Of a DNA stretch of 64,000 bases, positions 561 to 34,684 are shown piece by piece; position 1 is the stretch's first letter, and each line of letters begins with the position of its first letter. Under the pieces are notes generated by a model. The model did no database searches and was not told the DNA's origin. It was given only the letters and a program-made list of their open reading frames with translations. Both the position numbers and the translations under genes were made by a program. This DNA is from Torpedo marmorata. Its lineage: Eukaryota. The DNA is taken from assembly GCA_977017645.1 (NCBI GenBank), contig OZ360220.1:317688001-317752000 (forward strand). Reading direction: 5' to 3'.

Positions 561-1111
561 CATGTTACAACTCTACAAATCTCTGGTGAGACCACACTTG
601 GAATATTGTGCACAGTTCTGGTCACCTCATTATAGGAAGGATGTGGAAGCTATGGAGAGGGTGCAGAGGAGATTTACCAGGATGTTGCCTGGATTGAAAA
701 ACAAGTCTTATGAGACAAGGTTAATAGAGCTAGGACTTTTCTCTTTGGAGCGTAGAAGGATGAGAGGAGACTTGATAGAGGTCTACAAGATTATGAGAGG
801 CATAGATTGGGTGGACAGCCAGCACCTGTTTCCCAGGGCAGGATCAGCCACCAGAGGACATACCGTATATTTCGGCATATAAATCAAGGCTTGAAACCCT
901 CAAAAATCACTCAAAAATGGGGGGTCGACTTATACGCCAGATATGCTTTTGAGACCTTAAATTCAACTAAAAAAAAAAAAAAAACGCTTGACGTAGATTC
1001 GGCGTATAAGACAACCCTGGAAGCACCTCCCCTCCACCGGCGCCGCCGCTCCCCGACACCTCCCCACCGCCGGGCACCGCCATAACCCGCCCAGACATTC
1101 TACAATTGTAG

Positions 1112-1353
1112 AGCCTGAGGTCGCCGCTCCTGCCCGGGAGCCCGAGGTCCCTGCTCCTGCCCGGTAGGCCGAGGTCCCTGCTCCTGCCGGGAGAACGAGG
1201 TCGCCGCTCCTGCCCGGAGAACGAGGTCGCTGCACCTGCCCGGTAGGCCGAGGTTGCCACTCCTGCCCGATATGCCGTGGACCCCGCTCCTGCCGGGAGC
1301 CCGAGGTCGCTGCTCCTGCCCAGTAGGCCGAGGTCCCCGCTCCTGTCCGGGAG
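1112..1353. repeat. GC-rich minisatellite, ~26-27 bp unit, about 9 copies
   Basis: repeated ccgaggtc(g/c)c(c/t)gctcctgcccgg(g/t)ag. Confidence 0.85.
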
Positions 1354-1510
1354 CCGACACGTAGCCGTGGTTCCTGCACTGAGCACACTTGGGCAGCAAG
1401 GCGACTTCTTCGATGTGAACGGCACCGCACCCGATGTTGAGAATGGAGTCGCCGTCGCTGACTCCGGCTGCAGCCGATGCTGAAGACTTGGACCCAGCTC
1501 CGTTTGGCAT
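1351..1510 (-). pseudogene. DMRT1: DMRT1-like exon 1 fragment inside the TIR element
   Basis: ATG at 1510 gives MPNGAGSKSS; SKKSP in an adjacent frame is followed by LPKCAQCRNHGYVS; matches recalled DMRT1 MPN...SKKSPRLPKCARCRNHGY; truncated before LKGHK. Confidence 0.8.
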
Positions 1511-2515
1511 TTTCCCGGCCAGAAGCAAAGGTTTTTTAAAGTTTTTTTTTACTTGCTTGCTTAATTTACAGATTTGTTACTTGGCGATTGGGGTGTTGTA
1601 ACAAAGTTTGGGTTGTTGCTGGGAGGCCCGGACACCAGTATCCGGCATGTTCCTTGCAGAAAATTGGGGGGTCGACTTATACGCCCGATATATGATAAAA
1701 CCATGAAAGTGAGGCTGAAAATGGGGACCTGACTTATCTGCCGGTCGACTTATATGCTGAAATATACGGTATGTACAAAGTTAAGGGAAGGAAGTTTAGG
1801 AGAGATATCAGGGGTACGTTTTTTACACAGAGAGTTGTGGGTGTCTGGAATGCCTTGCCAGGGATGGTGGTGGAGGCTGAAACATTGGGGGCATTTAAGA
1901 GACTCTTAGACAGACACATGGATGAGAGAAAAATAGAGGGTTACGGGGTAGGGAGAGTTTAGTACTTTTTATTTTAGGAAGGAATATATGGGTCGGCACA
2001 ATATAGAGGGCCGAAGGGCCTGTACTGTGCTGTAGTGTTCTATGTTCTATCTCCCTAGTCCAATGAGAATTCATGCACTCTCCAGAGTTAATAGACAACC
2101 AATTGAAACAAATGGAATGCTGTGGGGCCAGCTTCAAAAATGTTCCAACAAGAGCTCATCTCAATCAATTGCAGGGGGAGTAGTAAAGCTCTGTTCAGGA
2201 CTTCAGCTTCTGATTAACATGAGTCTGAGGAAGCAAAAAAGAGAAATTGTCTTCCCAATGTACTCCCAATGATTTATCCACTGCATTTCATAAAAGCATT
2301 CAGAACACTCATGGGCGAATTCAATAATGTGTTGAACAAAATTCATTCTCATTTATATGGAATTGAACAGCACTTCCTGAGCAAAAGAATTATTAGATAA
2401 TAATAAATTTATACCAAATGTAGCAATGGCCAAATTGATTATGAGCATCTCCATAAAGCCTAATTTCATTAAGTTTTCCATCAAACAGTGCATTCAGTCA
2501 AGAACACATAAATCT

Positions 2516-7298: not shown

Positions 7299-10200
7299 TC
7301 AACATCTAGACAGGCAATCAGCAAAGACATTGTCCTTGCCTTTAATATGAGTTATTACTAAGTCATATTCTTGCAAAATTAAACTCCAGTTCAACAATCT
7401 TCTATTTTTATGTTTCATTTTACTCAAAAACACCAATGGATTATGATCAGTGTAAACCACAATTGATCCCATAGCATTGCAAATATAAACCTCAAAATGT
7501 TGCAAAGCCCATACAAGAGACAATAATTCCTTTTCAATAGTAGAATAATTCTTTTGGTGTTGATTGAACTTCTTAGATACATAAGCCACTGGATGCTCAA
7601 TACCATCATTTTCACTCTTCTGCAATAAAACTGCTCCTGTTGCGTCATCACTAGCATCTAATGCTAAAGAGAATGGCTTTCCAAAGTCAGGTGACCTAAG
7701 CATAGGCCTGTGACATAAAATGGCTTTTAGTTTGTCAAAAGCTTCTTGACAAATTGTTGTCTAAATAAACTTTTCACCCTTTTTCAAAAGATTAGTCAGA
7801 GGAATGGCAATGTCAGCAAAATTTTTACAGAACTTTCGGTAATACCCAACCATTCCTAAAAATCTCCTCACAGCTTTCTTACCCGTGGGTACAGGAAATT
7901 CAATAATTGTCTGAAGTTTAGCTTGAACAGGCGCCACTTTTCCTTAGCCAACAACATAACCAAGATAAGTCACCTCAGCATGACAAAATTCACTTTTAGC
8001 TAAATTAACAGTAAGATTGGCTTTCAAAAGTTTATCAAACAATTTCTCTAACGCAGAGATGTGTTCTTCCCATGTATCATTCCCTGTAACCAAGTCATCA
8101 ATATAAGCATCTGTATGTTTTAAATCTTGAGTCACAGAATTAATCATCCTTTGAAATGTTCCTGGAGCATTCTTCATTCCAAATGGTAAAACATTGTACT
8201 CATATAAACCCGCTGGGGTTACAAAGGCTGAAATTTCCCTTCTTCTTTCTGTTAAAGGCACACACAAGTAACCTTTTAATAAATCTATCTTTGTAATAAA
8301 TTTAGCTTTTCCAATCTTATCCACACAATCATCCACCCTAGGGATAGGATAAGCACCTGTTTTTGTCACTGCATTAACTTTTCTATAATCAGTGCAAAAT
8401 CTAACTGTCCCATCTGATTTAGGTACCAGTACACAAGGTGAACTCCAATCTGAAGTAGAATGTCTAATAATATTATTCTTTAACATGTACTCAATCTCTT
8501 GATCTACCTGTTTACATTTTTCAATGTTCATTCCATATGGATGCTGTTTGATAGGTCTTTCCTCTCCAACATCAACATCGTGGCAAGCGATGGAAATTCG
8601 TTGAGGCACATCCGGAAACAACTTTCTGAATTTTAAAATCAACTGTTTCATTTGTTCCATTTCCTGAGGTTTCAAATGAGCCAACTTCTCATCCAAATTT
8701 TTCAATATACTTGAATTAGGCAAATGAACTGGAACAATATTCTCTTTAAAATGACTCTCACAAGAATCAGCTTGCATGGTCTCATGATCCATTACCTCAG
8801 TTTTCTCCACAACCAATACCTCTGGTGAAGGCTGCTTCTGCCTAACATCCATATCCTCAAAATAAGGTTTTAACATGTTAACGTGGCAACTCTGTGTTTT
8901 ACGTCTCCTATCAGGAGTTTTAACCACGTAATTAACTTCATTTACCTTAGATTCTATTTCATAAGGTCCTGAAAATTTTGCTCTAAGAGGATTAGAAATT
9001 GTTGGAAAAAGAATTAACACCTTATCCCCTGGTTTAAAATTTCTCTCTCTGGCTTTGCTGTCGTACCAAAACTTCATATCTCCTTGAGCCATTTTTAAAT
9101 TCTCCTTAGGTATCTGACAGACCTTCTGTAAATGATCTTTGAGCTTTGAAACATAATCTAACAAATTTAACTGTACATCCTCATTAACCCACTGTTCTTT
9201 CAACAACATTAAAGGTCCCCTAACCTCATGTCCAAATACCAATTCAAAAGGACTAAAGCCTAATGATTCTTGTATTGTTTCCCTTACTGCAAACAAAAGT
9301 AAATGAACACCTTCATCCCAGTCCTTCTCATTTTCACAACAATAAGTCCTCATCATAGTTTTTAAAGTCAAATGGAATCTCTCCAAAGCTCCCTGAGATT
9401 CTGGGATATATGCAGATGATGTAATTTGCTTAGCTCCCAATTTATAAAATAACTACTGAAATACACCTGACATAAAGTTACTCCCCTGATCTGTCTATAT
9501 TTCTTTCGGCAAACCAAATGAAGTGAAAAATTTCACTAGAGCCCCAGACACAGTTTTTGCTTTAATATTCCTAAGTGGTATTCCTTCAGGAAACCTAGAA
9601 GCTACACACATAATGGTCAACAAATATTCATTTCCAGCTTTTGTTTTGGGCAATGGACCAATACAATCCACAATAACTTTGGAAAAAGGTTCTCCAAAAA
9701 CTGGAATAGGTTTTAAAGGTGCCACTGTGGGACTTTGATTAGGCTTCCCCACAACCTGACAAGTGTGACAGGTCCTACAAAATCTCTTAACATTTTTTAT
9801 TAAATTAGGCCAATAAAATTGTTTCATAATTTTATAGGTAGTTTTCCTTACCCCCAAGATGCCCACCTAAAGGTGTGCTGTGGGCCACGTTTAAAATCTC
9901 ATCTCTATAAGCTTAAGCAACCACAACCTGGTGAACAACTGTCCATTCTTCATTAGCAGGAATTTCAAGTGACCTCCATTTTCTCATCAATATACCCTCT
10001 TTGAAATAGTAACCAACTGGCACTTTCTTAATTTCTTCATTAGAGAGGGCTTTATCCTTAACGTCAGCAAGATCAATATCTTCATTTTGTTTCTCTATTA
10101 ATATTTCCCTGGAGAGTGACAAATCTTTTTCCATCTGCTGTTCACTGTCACAGACTTCCAACCCTTTTAATTCATTTTGTACATTACTGCTTTCACTGGC

Positions 10201-11740
10201 AAGCCTTCTTGCCATCACCCTTGTCACTGCACACGCTGGATATATATCTAAATCTGTCTCTGTTTCATCAATGACTGGCTTATCTGTTAATTTCACTGCA
10301 GGGATGACTTTACCTTCTGCCAAATCATTTCCTAATAATAACAAAATACCATCCATTGGTAAACTGGATCTAATCCCTATTTGAACAGGTCCATTAACTA
10401 ATTCTGATTTCAACATTATCTTGTGCAAAGGTATCGATTCCGAATCACATCCAAAACCTTTAATCAAATTTATTTCACCTGTGGCAGTCTTATCATTAAA
10501 CTCCAAAACACTGACTAACACAAGTGACTGAGCTGCCCCAGTATCTCTGAGTATTTTTACTGTTACCTGTGGTGATCCTTCCTCTAATGAAACTTTACCC
10601 TCTGACACAAAATATTCAAATTCCTCCCTAATCTTACCAGCAGATCCTTTTTTACTACCATGTATTTCATCTCTTTGAATACAAGCCTCTGGTACGGCTT
10701 TCTGTTCTCTCTTTCTCTTCAAGGAAAAACAGTTCGCTACCACATGACCAGGTTTCTTACAATAATTACAAAATGGACCAGAAAGTTTTTCATTTCCGGG
10801 CTTTTTTTCTTCTGTACCTCTAGCACCATTTCCCCATTTACTCTCTTCCTTAATTGGATACTTAAAATTACCTTCTTTAAAAGGTTTACCTTCTGAAAAA
10901 TGTCGATTGGGTACAAATCTGACTTTGAGAGTTGAGGCATATTCATCGGCTAATTTAGCAGCCTCCTGCCAAGTTGTCACTCCCTTTTCATCTAAATATG
11001 TTTTGATATCATGAGGAACACACCTTTTAATTTCCTCAACTAACATCAACTCTTTCAGTCTGTTACAATCACCATTTATTTCTTTTGATGTGCACCATCG
11101 GTTAAAGCACACAGCTTTATTATAGGCAAACTCCATATAGGACTGGTTCCCAGCTTTCTTCAAAGTCCTGAATTTTTGTCTATATGCTTCTGGAACCAAT
11201 TCATAAGCCTTAAGCACAGCTTGCTTTACAATACATAATCAGTTGCTTGTTGGATGGTAAGAGCAGAGTAAGCCTGCTGAGCCTTTCCTCTAATTACACT
11301 CTGTAACATGAGGGACCAATGGTTTCTTGGCCATTTCAAACTCTCAGCCACTTTCTCAAAGTGTTGAAAATATTTATCAATATCATCCTCATTAAATGGA
11401 GGAACTAACTTTATCTCTCTACTAGACATAAAATTCTCACGAGAACCAAGATATAAAGCTCCTGCTCCTCTCATCTCTAGTTCAAACCTCCGTTTTTTTC
11501 CAGCTTCTTCTGCCTCAAATCTCCTTTGCCGTTCTGCTTCCTCTCTTTGTTTTTCCTATCTCTCAGAATTCTATATTTTTCTAAGTCCATCTCCTTTACA
11601 CGTAGTTCAATCTCCATTCTACGTCTCTCTAACTCAACCTGTTCCATCTGTACCTGCTGCTTAAGAGGTTTACTCTCAAGAAATAGTTTTAACTCCTCTT
11701 TTTCAAAAGTCCCCTCTTTTAACATAAAATAACTTAACAA
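7299..11740 (-). pseudogene. Gypsy gag-pol (gag, PR, IN, RT, RNase H) with stops and frameshifts
   Basis: collinear ORFs 11477-11740, 11226-11474, 9913-11217, 9495-9866, 7944-9440, 7299-7703. Confidence 0.92.
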
Positions 11741-32310: not shown

Positions 32311-32764
32311 AACTCGCTCTTTTAAAGATTCAACTTATATCCAGAGAAACTACCAAATTGGGAAAGCAAAGACAACATTGGAGGAATAGATTTCTCAGGA
32401 TCTGAAATATATACTAAAAAATCATGTGATTATAAACAGGTACATGCATGTTTATTGGGAATAACTCGCTCTTTTAAAGATTCAACTTATATCCAGAGAA
32501 ACTACCAAATTGGGAAAGCAAAGACAACATTGGAGGAATATATTTCTCAGGATCTGAAATATATACTAAAAAATCATCTGCATATAAAGATACTTTGTGA
32601 ATTCCATCTCCTCTATTAATTCCCTGAATATCACTAAAATCCCAAAGTGCTATTGCAAGGGATTCCAAAGCTAAATTAAATAATAAAGGGCTAAGAGGAC
32701 AACCCTGTCTAGTTCCTTGAAATAACCTAAAAAGTGAAGATTTTTGATTATTTGTAATTACAGC

Positions 32765-34684
32765 ATTCGGCAACGCCATGGAAGCTCTGGCAAAGGCAAC
32801 AACGCTGGTACATCCACGAGCCAACGCACCAACAGCTCTCACGGTCGACTCATCAGGCACAGCCGTGAGCGGAGTGCTGGAGCAAGTGATCAATGGTAGC
32901 TGGCAGCCCCTCGCCTTTTTCAGTCGCCACCTGAGACTGCCCGAACAGAGATACAGCGCTTTCGACCGGGAGCTCCTCACTCTCTACCTCGCCATCCGAT
33001 ATTTCTGCTATTTCACAGCTTTCATGGACCACAAACCAGTCACGTTTGCCTTTGCCAAAGTGCCTGATCCTTGTTCAGCCCGACAGCAGCGCCACCTGAC
33101 CTACATCTCAGAATACACGACTTGCGTCCAGCACATCTCAGGCAAGAGCAACCAGGTCGCAGATGCGTTGGCCCGCACGACCATCAATGCCATCCACGCT
33201 CTGGCCCCAGGTGTCGACTACACGGCCGTGGCGGCCGCTCAACGAAATGATGAAGAGATGCTCGCCTACCACACTGCCATCTCAGGCCTAAAGTTGTAGG
33301 ATGTGAGATTCGGACCCGCTGACACCACACTCCTCTGCGACGCGTCTACGGGACAGCCAAGACCCATCATCCCCGCTACTTGGCGCCGCTGGATTTTCGA
33401 CATGGTTCACGGCCAAGCTCATCCTTCCATCCAGGCAACGAAGGAACTTATGGCAGCCAAATTCATGTGGCATGGGTTGCTCAAACAGGTCGGCAACTGG
33501 GCCAGAGAGTGCATCCCCTGTCAAACCTCCAAGATTCAGAGACACATCAAGGCGCCTCTGCAGACATTCACCCTGACACACCAGCGTTTCGACCACATCC
33601 ACGTCGACATCGTTGGACTGCTGCCCCCATCCAAGGTGTCACCCACCTCTTCACCATTGTTGACAGATTCACAAGGTGGCCGGAGGCCATCCCGCTCTTG
33701 GATACCTCCACTGTGACGTGTGCGCGTGCCCTCATCGCCCACTGGATCATTCGCTTTGGCGTGCCGGCGGACATCTCCTCTGACAGAGGTGCGCAGTTCA
33801 CCTCCGAGCTGTGGTCAGCAATGGCGCGGCTGCTTGGCACTAATCTGCACCACACAATGGCCTACCACCTGCAATCAAACGGCATAGTGGAACGCTTTCA
33901 CCGGCACATGAAGGCATCCCTCAAAGCTCGGCTCACGGGCCCAAACTGGATGGACGAATTGCTGTGGGTCATGCTAGGTATACGCACTGCCCCCAAGGAG
34001 GACCTGGCAACTTCCTCGGCCAAGCTGGTGTACGGTGCCCCGCTTACGGTCCCAGGGGTCTTCATCCCGGCGGCGCGTGCACATCAAGAAACTCCCGCGA
34101 CCATGCTGACGTGCCTCCGTGAGAAGGTGGGCATGCTTTCTCCAGTCCCAACGTCCCGACACGGTCTCACAGCCACGTACATCCCACCCGACCTCAAGGA
34201 CTGCCAGTACGTTTTCCTTCGCCGAGATTCTCACCGTACACCTCTGCAAAAGCCTTACGAGGGACCCTTCAGAGTACTGCAAAACGACGCCATGGCTTTC
34301 ATCATTGACATGGGTGGCAGACACGAGACGGTCTCTGTGGACCGTCTTAAGCCGGCACACTTGGACATTGACCAACCAGTGCAGGTGGCACAACCCCGCC
34401 GCAGAGGGCGTCCACCCTCACGACTAAACCCGCCCTCAACTCAACCAGCTGCAACCCCGAACACAGGAGACACATGCACAAGATCAGGCCGCCTAGAGTA
34501 CTGGCTCTTATCTGAGAGTGCAGCTGACTCGACGCACGGGACCATAGCACGGGACCATAGCACGTCTTCTTGACTTTTGCGGCCAGCAAGTTAAAGCGTC
34601 CCTTGTCCGTTGACGGTTTTATTAAGCTGTAATGTTAACCATTAAACTCAGTGTTTAGACAAAACGCGAACGACCTCAGCTTCA
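32765..34684 (+). mobile_element. Gypsy 3' part (RNase H, integrase, probable partial LTR)
   Basis: QPLAFFSR, YSAFDRELL, DHKP, SDRGAQFTSELW, VERFHR, PYEGPF; standard RH-IN order. Confidence 0.9.

What the first reader, a model, noticed from the sequence alone, without database searches (positions are those of the whole stretch)
863..1769. Pack-type DNA transposon carrying the 5' end of the sex-determination gene DMRT1
Seen: a 907-bp element with 20-bp TIRs and a TA TSD whose removal restores the host CR1 frame. It has no transposase. On the minus strand it reads ATG CCA AAC (MPN, 1510) ... TCG AAG AAG TCG CCT [1 nt short] CTG CCC AAG TGT GCT CAG TGC AGG AAC CAC GGC TAC GTG TCG, i.e. SKKSP(R)LPKCA(R>Q)CRNHGYVS. 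Known: MPN start and KKSPRLPKCARCRNHGY fit DMRT1 (DMRT2, DMRT3 and DMRTA have GV), and partial or whole DMRT1 duplicates became sex determiners (Xenopus DM-W, medaka dmy). Inference: a Tc1/mariner-type element captured genomic DMRT1 exon 1 plus upstream sequence and transposed it, so a dispersed DMRT1-bearing Pack-TIR family may exist. The DM domain is truncated, so a functional protein is unlikely.
Basis: partly seen in the sequence, partly recalled or inferred. Interest (0 to 1): 0.9.

Follow-up and report, generated by a model that had tools for sequence, protein, structure and literature searches.

The report
Sex-gene fragment relayed between transposons
In a ray genome, a broken piece of the testis gene DMRT1 sits inside jumping genes at more than 1,400 places, carried by three unrelated kinds of transposon that likely passed it from one to another, while a fourth transposon carries the DNA-binding exon of its relative DMRTA1; the copies are likely decaying without a function.

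Summary
Confirmed, and larger than reported. Window 863-1769 is a non-autonomous pogo/Passer element (TIRs, TA duplication, inside a CR1 LINE). Its cargo is genomic DMRT1 (leader, part of exon 1, intron-1 minisatellite) from the single DMRT1 locus of this ray genome. A 22-nt pattern across a cargo-specific 44-nt deletion has 1,447 exact hits (control 0). Of 60 such copies, 18 sit in Passer ends, 21 in Tigger-like ends (TA) and 18 in hAT ends (8-bp TSD); 3 were unassigned. They share deletions, and hAT and Tigger-like copies carry sequence from the Passer carrier, so the cargo was captured once and likely relayed between superfamilies. Four copies keep a longer DM domain. A different hAT family carries the whole DMRTA1 DM domain plus intron (40 copies checked). 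Forkhead and homeobox controls show no such amplification. Published multicopy animal Pack-TIRs have 3-5 copies. No role in sex determination is supported.

The parts
861..862 (.). TA target-site duplication (left)
863..1769 (-). Non-autonomous Passer (pogo) Pack element, subfamily Y, carrying DMRT1 cargo
863..1022 (-). 3' end with TIR; 85% identical to the 3' end of the transposase-bearing Passer relic L126
1023..1079 (-). Second GC-rich filler of unknown origin; shared with older Passer-X' and Tigger-like carriers; not found in the 20 kb around DMRT1 exon 1
1080..1110 (-). Remnant of the 3' subterminal sequence of the older Passer-X family (first carrier)
   Evidence: read from sequences
1111..1356 (-). 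GC-rich minisatellite derived from DMRT1 intron 1; copy number varies between elements
1351..1667 (-). DMRT1 cargo: leader (probably 5' UTR) and 5' half of exon 1, with family-wide 21-, 44- and 1-nt deletions; cut inside the DM domain at a 6-nt microhomology with the intron
1100..1510 (-). Chimeric 136-aa ORF: DMRT1 N-terminus, short shifted stretch, DM residues 3-15 of 47, then minisatellite
1664..1769 (-). 5' end with TIR; 95% identical to the Passer relic L126
1770..1771 (.). TA target-site duplication (right)
562..1930 (+). Host CR1-type LINE fragment interrupted by the element (CR1 label recalled; frame restoration shown)

Best explanation
The element is one of more than 1,400 dispersed, transposase-less DNA transposon copies that carry a broken 5' piece of DMRT1, captured once from genomic DNA, likely by a Passer (pogo) element during gap repair, and likely handed on to Tigger-like and hAT shells. 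Step 1: a Passer-X element took up the stretch from about 185 nt upstream of the ATG into the intron-1 minisatellite. DNA-level capture is shown by the intron sequence; template switching is inferred from a 2-nt junction microhomology. Step 2: Passer transposase acting in trans amplified it (inferred from ends shared with transposase relics), while deletions, several at short microhomologies, trimmed the DM domain stepwise (intermediates shown). Step 3: the already-deleted cargo moved into Passer-Y, Tigger-like and hAT ends (common descent shown), by nested insertion plus trimming or by gap filling from the abundant copies (route inferred, not resolved). Step 4: each shell amplified it again, and the copies now likely decay neutrally and are likely methylated. 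A separate hAT family captured DMRTA1 exon 1 and intron 1 independently.
For: One DMRT1 gene: L043, in order with DMRT3 and DMRT2 on C2, named by homologs; its exon end has one full-length match and four partial copies. 1,447 exact junction hits, reversed-pattern control 0; 2,889 candidates. Both TIRs found in 17 of 30 top copies, TA|TA in 16; flanks unrelated apart from partial common repeats. [quoted passage not shown] Long-cargo copies L062-L064 have Passer-X ends; 29 other top X-end hits lack DMRT1. Sample of 60: 21 Tigger-like (TA|TA in 13 of 17 with both ends), 18 hAT, 18 Passer, 3 unassigned. hAT TSD within 1 mismatch in 18 of 24 with both ends. The shells exist without cargo: 26 of 30 Tigger-TIR hits; L235 has the hAT end plus a SCAND3/ZBED8-like ORF. 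Relay markers: the shared 44-nt deletion; a second deletion of the DM part in all 21 Tigger-like, all 18 hAT and the 3 classified Passer-X'-type copies; the Passer-X 3' remnant in 13 of 18 hAT copies; the Passer-X' filler in 15 of 21 Tigger-like copies; the cargo start shared by X and long hAT copies. A Passer element nested in the same hAT family shows nesting occurs (L229). CpG sites diverge 12-16% against 2-4% elsewhere.
Against: The sample was picked with the 44-nt junction pattern, so sharing that deletion is by construction; the relay rests on the other markers. All 60 come from contig C1 and omit 4 already-held Passer-Y copies among the first 64 listed. Markers conflict on the order: hAT shares a shortened spacer with Y but the DM deletion with X' and Tigger, so recurrent deletion or conversion is needed. 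No transposase was found for the Tigger-like shell; that label rests on TA TSD and recalled TIR likeness. No cargo-less parent was found for the DMRTA1 hAT among held loci. Counting all mutations gives a synonymous excess in the Y ORF (115 vs 95.7 expected, z 2.8), which neutral decay does not predict unless the counts are non-independent.
Confidence: 0.85

Rival explanations
1. The cargo helps its carriers: a germline-open, CpG-rich DMRT 5' end raises transposition or blunts silencing because silencing it would also hit the host gene, and this is why it was re-used by several shells and why a second DMRT gene was captured.
For: Three shell types amplified the same cargo. Two DM genes 10 Mb apart on C2 were captured independently, while Forkhead (82 candidates) and Homeodomain (388) show ordinary counts against 3,770 for DM. 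Both captured regions are CpG-rich (obs/exp 0.81 and 0.98). Bat Helitrons with 5' gene ends reach higher copy number (PMC4224331). The conflict model exists for maize (10.1101/777037, listing only).
Against: Cargo CpGs decay about as much as TE-end CpGs (11% vs 15%). Cargo-less MITEs of the Tigger-like shell are more common than cargo-bearing ones (26 of 30). Only two control families were tested. Mass action of an abundant template can explain re-use.
Confidence: 0.25
2. Some copies are co-opted by the host (truncated DM peptides, DMRTA1 DM cassette exons, or small RNAs acting on DMRT1) and affect gonad development or sex.
For: The ATG frame is open to the DM half in 36 of 53 Y copies. Many hAT-DMRTA1 copies hold an open DM domain between an AG and the native GT donor. 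DMRT1 duplicates became sex triggers in other vertebrates (PMC12758760, listing only).
Against: Context-matched test: 41 vs 38.2 expected synonymous among unique changes, 23 vs 21.3 among singletons; 17 frameshifting indel events in 53 copies. Y copies keep only 3 of the 8 zinc ligands (ligand count from established DM structure) and 45 of 60 sampled copies have no DM part. Sharks and rays have an old XY system with known sex genes off the sex chromosomes, and Dmrt1 was not detected in bamboo shark gonadal primordia (PMC12318234).
Confidence: 0.1
3. Each transposon family captured DMRT1 independently from the gene, or the copies are retrocopies or segmental duplicates.
For: Different shells start the cargo at different points.
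Against: Intron-1 minisatellite retained; element-specific TSDs and unrelated flanks; identical deletion breakpoints and Passer remnants inside hAT and Tigger-like copies.
Confidence: 0.03

Closest known systems
Animal Pack-TIRs (Tan et al. 2021, PMC8277862; passages read)
   Same: TIR DNA transposon ends and TSDs around a host fragment with an identifiable parent; short junction microhomology; dispersed copies with distinct TSDs.
   Different: That survey of 100 genomes found four multicopy cases (1.4%) with 3-5 copies in the passages read; here at least 1,447 copies, a cargo shared by pogo and hAT shells, a graded deletion series, and a second capture from the same gene family. 'shark' occurs 0 times in its main text.
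Bat Helitron gene capture, HelibatN3/NUBPL (Thomas et al. 2014, PMC4224331; passages read)
   Same: 5' UTR, first exon and part of first intron of a vertebrate gene amplified to about a thousand copies; 5' ends amplify most.
   Different: Rolling-circle elements, not cut-and-paste. The sequential capture described there adds new genes to one Helitron; it does not move one cargo between superfamilies.
Passer family of pogo transposons (Gao et al. 2020, PMC7386202; passages read)
   Same: [quoted passage not shown]
   Different: Non-autonomous, with host cargo in place of the transposase; DD35D spacing not tested on the broken relics.
Plant Pack-MULE / Pack-TYPE elements (review PMC13317346, passages read)
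   Same: Non-autonomous TIR elements carrying gene fragments, mostly pseudogenic.
   Different: Animal host; one cargo at very high copy rather than many cargoes at low copy. 'recaptur' and 'nested' occur 0 times in that review.
DMRT1 duplicates as sex determiners: Xenopus dm-W, medaka dmy (recalled; listings only)
   Same: Duplicated 5' part of DMRT1.
   Different: Those are single sex-linked loci with a complete DM domain (recalled); these are dispersed over many contigs and broken, with no sign of selection.

Membership tests
Pack-TIR | TIR-element ends on both sides of non-TE sequence, with TSD | tested here: met
Pack-TIR | Identifiable parental host locus without the same TE ends nearby | tested here: met
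   L043; no Passer, Tigger-like or hAT end within 10 kb either side
Pack-TIR | DNA-level capture, not retrocopy or segmental duplication | tested here: met
   intron-1 sequence present; unrelated flanks
Pack-TIR | Microhomology at capture breakpoints | tested here: inconclusive
   2 nt at the 5' junction, none clear at the 3' junction; chance level not excluded
pogo/Passer | TA TSD and TIR of 40 bp or less | tested here: met
pogo/Passer | [quoted passage not shown] | tested here: met
   L126, all three over Pfam cut-off, DDE_1 only just
pogo/Passer | DD35D triad and phylogenetic placement | not tested
   relics are frameshifted; no tree built
Tigger (second shell) | TA TSD and TIR | tested here: met
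Tigger (second shell) | CENP-B_N + HTH_Tnp_Tc5 transposase sharing the ends | tested here: inconclusive
   only MITEs or truncated ends among 30 TIR hits; the name rests on recalled TIR likeness
hAT, Buster/Charlie type (third shell) | 8-bp TSD with short TIR | tested here: met
   18 of 24 within 1 mismatch
hAT, Buster/Charlie type (third shell) | hAT transposase sharing an end | tested here: met
   L235 ORF hits SCAND3/ZBED8-like proteins; their hAT origin is established knowledge
hAT (DMRTA1 carrier) | 8-bp TSD and TIR | tested here: met
   9 of 9 readable and 10 of 12 within 1 mismatch
hAT (DMRTA1 carrier) | Autonomous partner | not tested
   no genome search made; none among held loci
DMRT1-derived sex determiner (dm-W/dmy type) | Complete DM domain in frame | tested here: not met
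   window copy holds DM positions 3-15 of 47; the longest copies lack the end of exon 1
DMRT1-derived sex determiner (dm-W/dmy type) | Sex linkage and gonadal expression | not testable with these tools
   no sexed reads; no run on record as RNA

The most novel reading that the evidence does not exclude
DM-gene 5' ends are selfishly useful cargo in this ray lineage: they were captured twice (DMRT1, DMRTA1) and re-used by three transposon shells because they shield or boost their carriers in the germline, putting over a thousand DMRT1 decoys in epigenetic conflict with the host's testis gene and seeding the genome with DMRTA1 DM-domain cassette exons.
Probability: 0.2. Interest if true: 0.9.

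Novelty: new variant of a known kind. Interest (0 to 1): 0.72.

Why it matters
It is an animal Pack-TIR family hundreds of times larger than those in the survey I read. Its intermediates record one host fragment moving between transposon superfamilies, which I did not find described. The cargo comes from a gene whose duplicates have repeatedly become sex determiners, so this shows a concrete route for scattering DMRT pieces. It also gives a vertebrate test of the gene-capture conflict model, with cargo-bearing and cargo-less subfamilies of the same shells as built-in controls. In practice, DMRT1 exon-1 probes, primers and DM-domain counts in this lineage will cross-react.

Tried and rejected
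Naive pN/pS of 0.53 on 53 Y copies was set aside after a base- and CpG-matched null showed no excess among unique or singleton changes. Expression: no RNA holder listed; two laid runs are only guessed to be RNA, so their coverage is not used as evidence of transcription. Of the 20 listed runs only 4 were laid; the small shares of unlaid runs are not used. A Pfam scan of the C-terminal piece of the L235 frame found no hAT domain; a homolog search on another piece did. A planned homolog search with the chimeric ORF was not completed, so annotation of such proteins in other species is untested. Capture in cis from a nearby element: no shell ends within 10 kb of DMRT1 exon 1. A third captured DMRT gene: not seen among 20 further DM hits (19 DMRTA1-hAT, 1 gene-like exon); 33 of the 87 listed hits and 3,620 unscored candidates were not examined. 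No tree was built, because the core shared by all shells is about 150 nt; order was read from indels. No absolute date was attempted. Earlier scan notes: three look-ups returned nothing. Repbase and Dfam could not be searched, and no supplements were read (Supplementary Data 1 of PMC8277862 may bear on the copy-number comparison).

Full report
Observation. The element is real: inverted arms at 858-885 and 1747-1774, TA on both sides, and an open CR1-type frame once it is removed. The interior is GC-rich (0.61-0.72 at 1001-1500) in AT-rich surroundings. The rest of the window holds LINE and LTR-element fragments and no recognisable host gene among 39 long frames (read by eye).

Source gene. A DM-domain search of the 6.2-Gb own genome gave 87 matches from 150 scored of 3,770 candidates. 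L043 (C2:246.43 Mb) lies in order with DMRT3- and DMRT2-type exons on the same strand. Its best near-full-length homologs are shark and ray DMRT1, with Narcine bancroftii at 88% over the whole query, and PDB 4yj0. The genome is therefore likely a ray, probably an electric ray (inference). The element aligns to L043 positions 1197-1549 (E 2e-80) and its repeats to the intron-1 minisatellite. The cargo keeps a Gly-Val pair found in other rays and sharks but absent from both the resident gene and Narcine DMRT1. Capture therefore preceded that loss, if the loss happened once.

Family size and ends. The cargo search gave 2,889 candidates, the top 40 at 93-100% over about 311 nt. A 22-nt pattern across the 44-nt deletion has 1,447 exact hits and the reversed control 0. 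It matched 18 of 24 cargo copies picked by their left end, so the true number is likely near 2,000 (inference). Among the top 30 copies both TIRs were found in 17 and TA|TA in 16. Of 29 other loci found with the left end, 24 carry cargo and 2 are transposase relics. One relic, L126, shares the window's ends at 95% and 85% and encodes BrkDBD, HTH_Tnp_Tc5 and DDE_1, the Passer architecture (PMC7386202, passages).

Older forms. The second half of exon 1 has one full match (the gene) and four partial copies. L062-L064 keep the leader, the whole zinc-binding part of the DM domain and intron sequence, but lack the end of exon 1 and the splice donor. Their ends belong to a related family, Passer-X, whose 29 other top hits lack DMRT1; those read are transposase deletion derivatives. 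L065 adds the 44-nt deletion. The window's subfamily Y adds 21-nt and 1-nt deletions and a cut from the DM domain into the intron at a short microhomology. The 44- and 1-nt deletions offset each other, so a 136-aa chimeric frame exists.

Relay. I fetched 60 of the first 64 listed pattern hits, all on C1; the 4 omitted were Passer-Y copies already held. Only 18 had Passer ends; 21 had Tigger-like ends (TA|TA in 13 of 17 with both ends), 18 had hAT-like ends and 3 were unassigned. By eye, two of the three are a truncated Passer-X' copy and a hAT-type copy, and two copies the script called Y have X-like ends. Top hits to the Tigger-like and hAT ends carried cargo in 30 of 30 and 27 of 30 (queries came from cargo copies, so this is biased). 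hAT TSDs were within one mismatch in 18 of 24. Both shells exist without cargo: 26 of 30 hits to the Tigger-like TIR (1,021 hits in all), and L235, whose hAT end adjoins a SCAND3/ZBED8-like frame. These shells took the cargo from the Passer element, not from the gene: all 39 share a second deletion with Passer-X' copies, 13 of 18 hAT copies keep the Passer-X 3' remnant, long hAT copies begin at the X breakpoint, and 15 of 21 Tigger-like copies keep the X' filler. The 5' flank of long hAT copies fits X better than the gene but is ambiguous. One spacer marker groups hAT with Y instead, so the exact order is open. L229 shows a Passer element nested in the same hAT family, so nesting followed by trimming is an available route; gap filling from abundant copies is the other. 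Classes differ 3-5% from their own column majority and 5.6-8.9% from the gene.

Second capture. Of 50 DM hits examined as loci, 10 are gene-like and 40 are copies of DMRTA1 exon 1 plus intron (name) at 79-94% identity. They lie in a different hAT-like element with 20-bp TIRs and 8-bp TSDs (9 of 9 and 10 of 12 within one mismatch). A 27-nt pattern has 43 hits including the gene. No in-frame ATG precedes the DM domain in the frames printed, which were picked by HMM score. A subfamily has a 360-nt open AG...GT cassette lacking the first cysteine; splicing is untested. Forkhead and Homeodomain searches gave 82 and 388 candidates, ordinary gene counts by my knowledge; two controls do not amount to a census.

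Other organisms. Twenty runs under eight organism codes hold part of the stretch. In the four laid, organisms E, C and D gave 116, 318 and 245 contigs covering 29 of 30 bins, with pieces bridging the 44-nt junction. Organism H gave one contig whose loose end resembles the segment the elements lack, as expected for the gene alone. The family thus appears shared by related organisms and was not seen in one more distant one. Transcription is not shown.

Function. The Y frame is open to the DM half in 36 of 53 copies, with 17 frameshifting and 9 in-frame indel events. Against a base- and CpG-matched null in 38 copies not picked by cargo similarity, synonymous changes are 41 vs 38.2 expected (unique) and 23 vs 21.3 (singletons); counting every occurrence gives 115 vs 95.7 (z 2.8), which may reflect shared descent or hotspots. 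CpG sites diverge 12-16% against 2-4% elsewhere, which implies germline methylation (inference). Sharks and rays use an old XY system with known sex genes off the sex chromosomes (PMC12318234, passages). Neutral decay is the best reading.

Comparison and verdict. It meets the Pack-TIR features I could test. The animal survey found four multicopy cases of 3-5 copies (PMC8277862, passages); about a thousand copies of a 5' gene end are known from bat Helitrons (PMC4224331, passages). Seven literature searches listed no DMRT-carrying transposon and no cargo relay between superfamilies; I saw those results as listings only, the library is incomplete, and repeat databases were not searchable. Verdict: new variant of a known kind, interest 0.72.

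Noticed in passing
L034 (G000:C2:256478365) and 40 checked copies, e.g. L048, L059, L299: Independent hAT-like family carrying the whole DMRTA1 DM domain, the exon-1 donor and up to about 650 bp of intron; one subfamily forms a 360-nt open AG...GT cassette.
   Followed up: yes
L057 (G000:C2:256448128-256448268, -): Divergent DM-domain exon 30 kb from DMRTA1, with a stop right after the domain; no match to the shell library tested.
   Followed up: partly
L283 (G000:C79:10330649-10330762, +): Another divergent DM exon, not a copy of DMRT1 or DMRTA1; possibly an extra DMRT paralog.
   Followed up: partly
L031, L038, L055, L032 (G000:C22:158.07-158.18 Mb and 191.98 Mb): Second DMRT cluster (DMRT3-like, DMRT2-like, DMRTB-like and DMRTA2-like exons; names recalled), paralogous to the C2 cluster.
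   Followed up: no
L043:1700-2373: A 670-bp GC-rich 30-nt minisatellite starts about 60 nt into DMRT1 intron 1.
   Followed up: partly
L229:1500-3000: Transposase-bearing Passer-Y element nested inside the hAT shell that elsewhere carries DMRT1.
   Followed up: partly
L143, L145, L148, L185: Left ends of these cargo copies look intermediate between Passer-X and Passer-Y, suggesting that ends were remodelled toward the active transposase.
   Followed up: partly
L252-L280: At least two cargo-less Tigger-like MITE subfamilies (about 300-350 and 580-630 bp) whose interiors are of unknown origin.
   Followed up: no
window 7299-11238 and 32748-34573: Broken LTR-retrotransposon-like gag/pol frames among many LINE fragments; observed only.
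   Followed up: no
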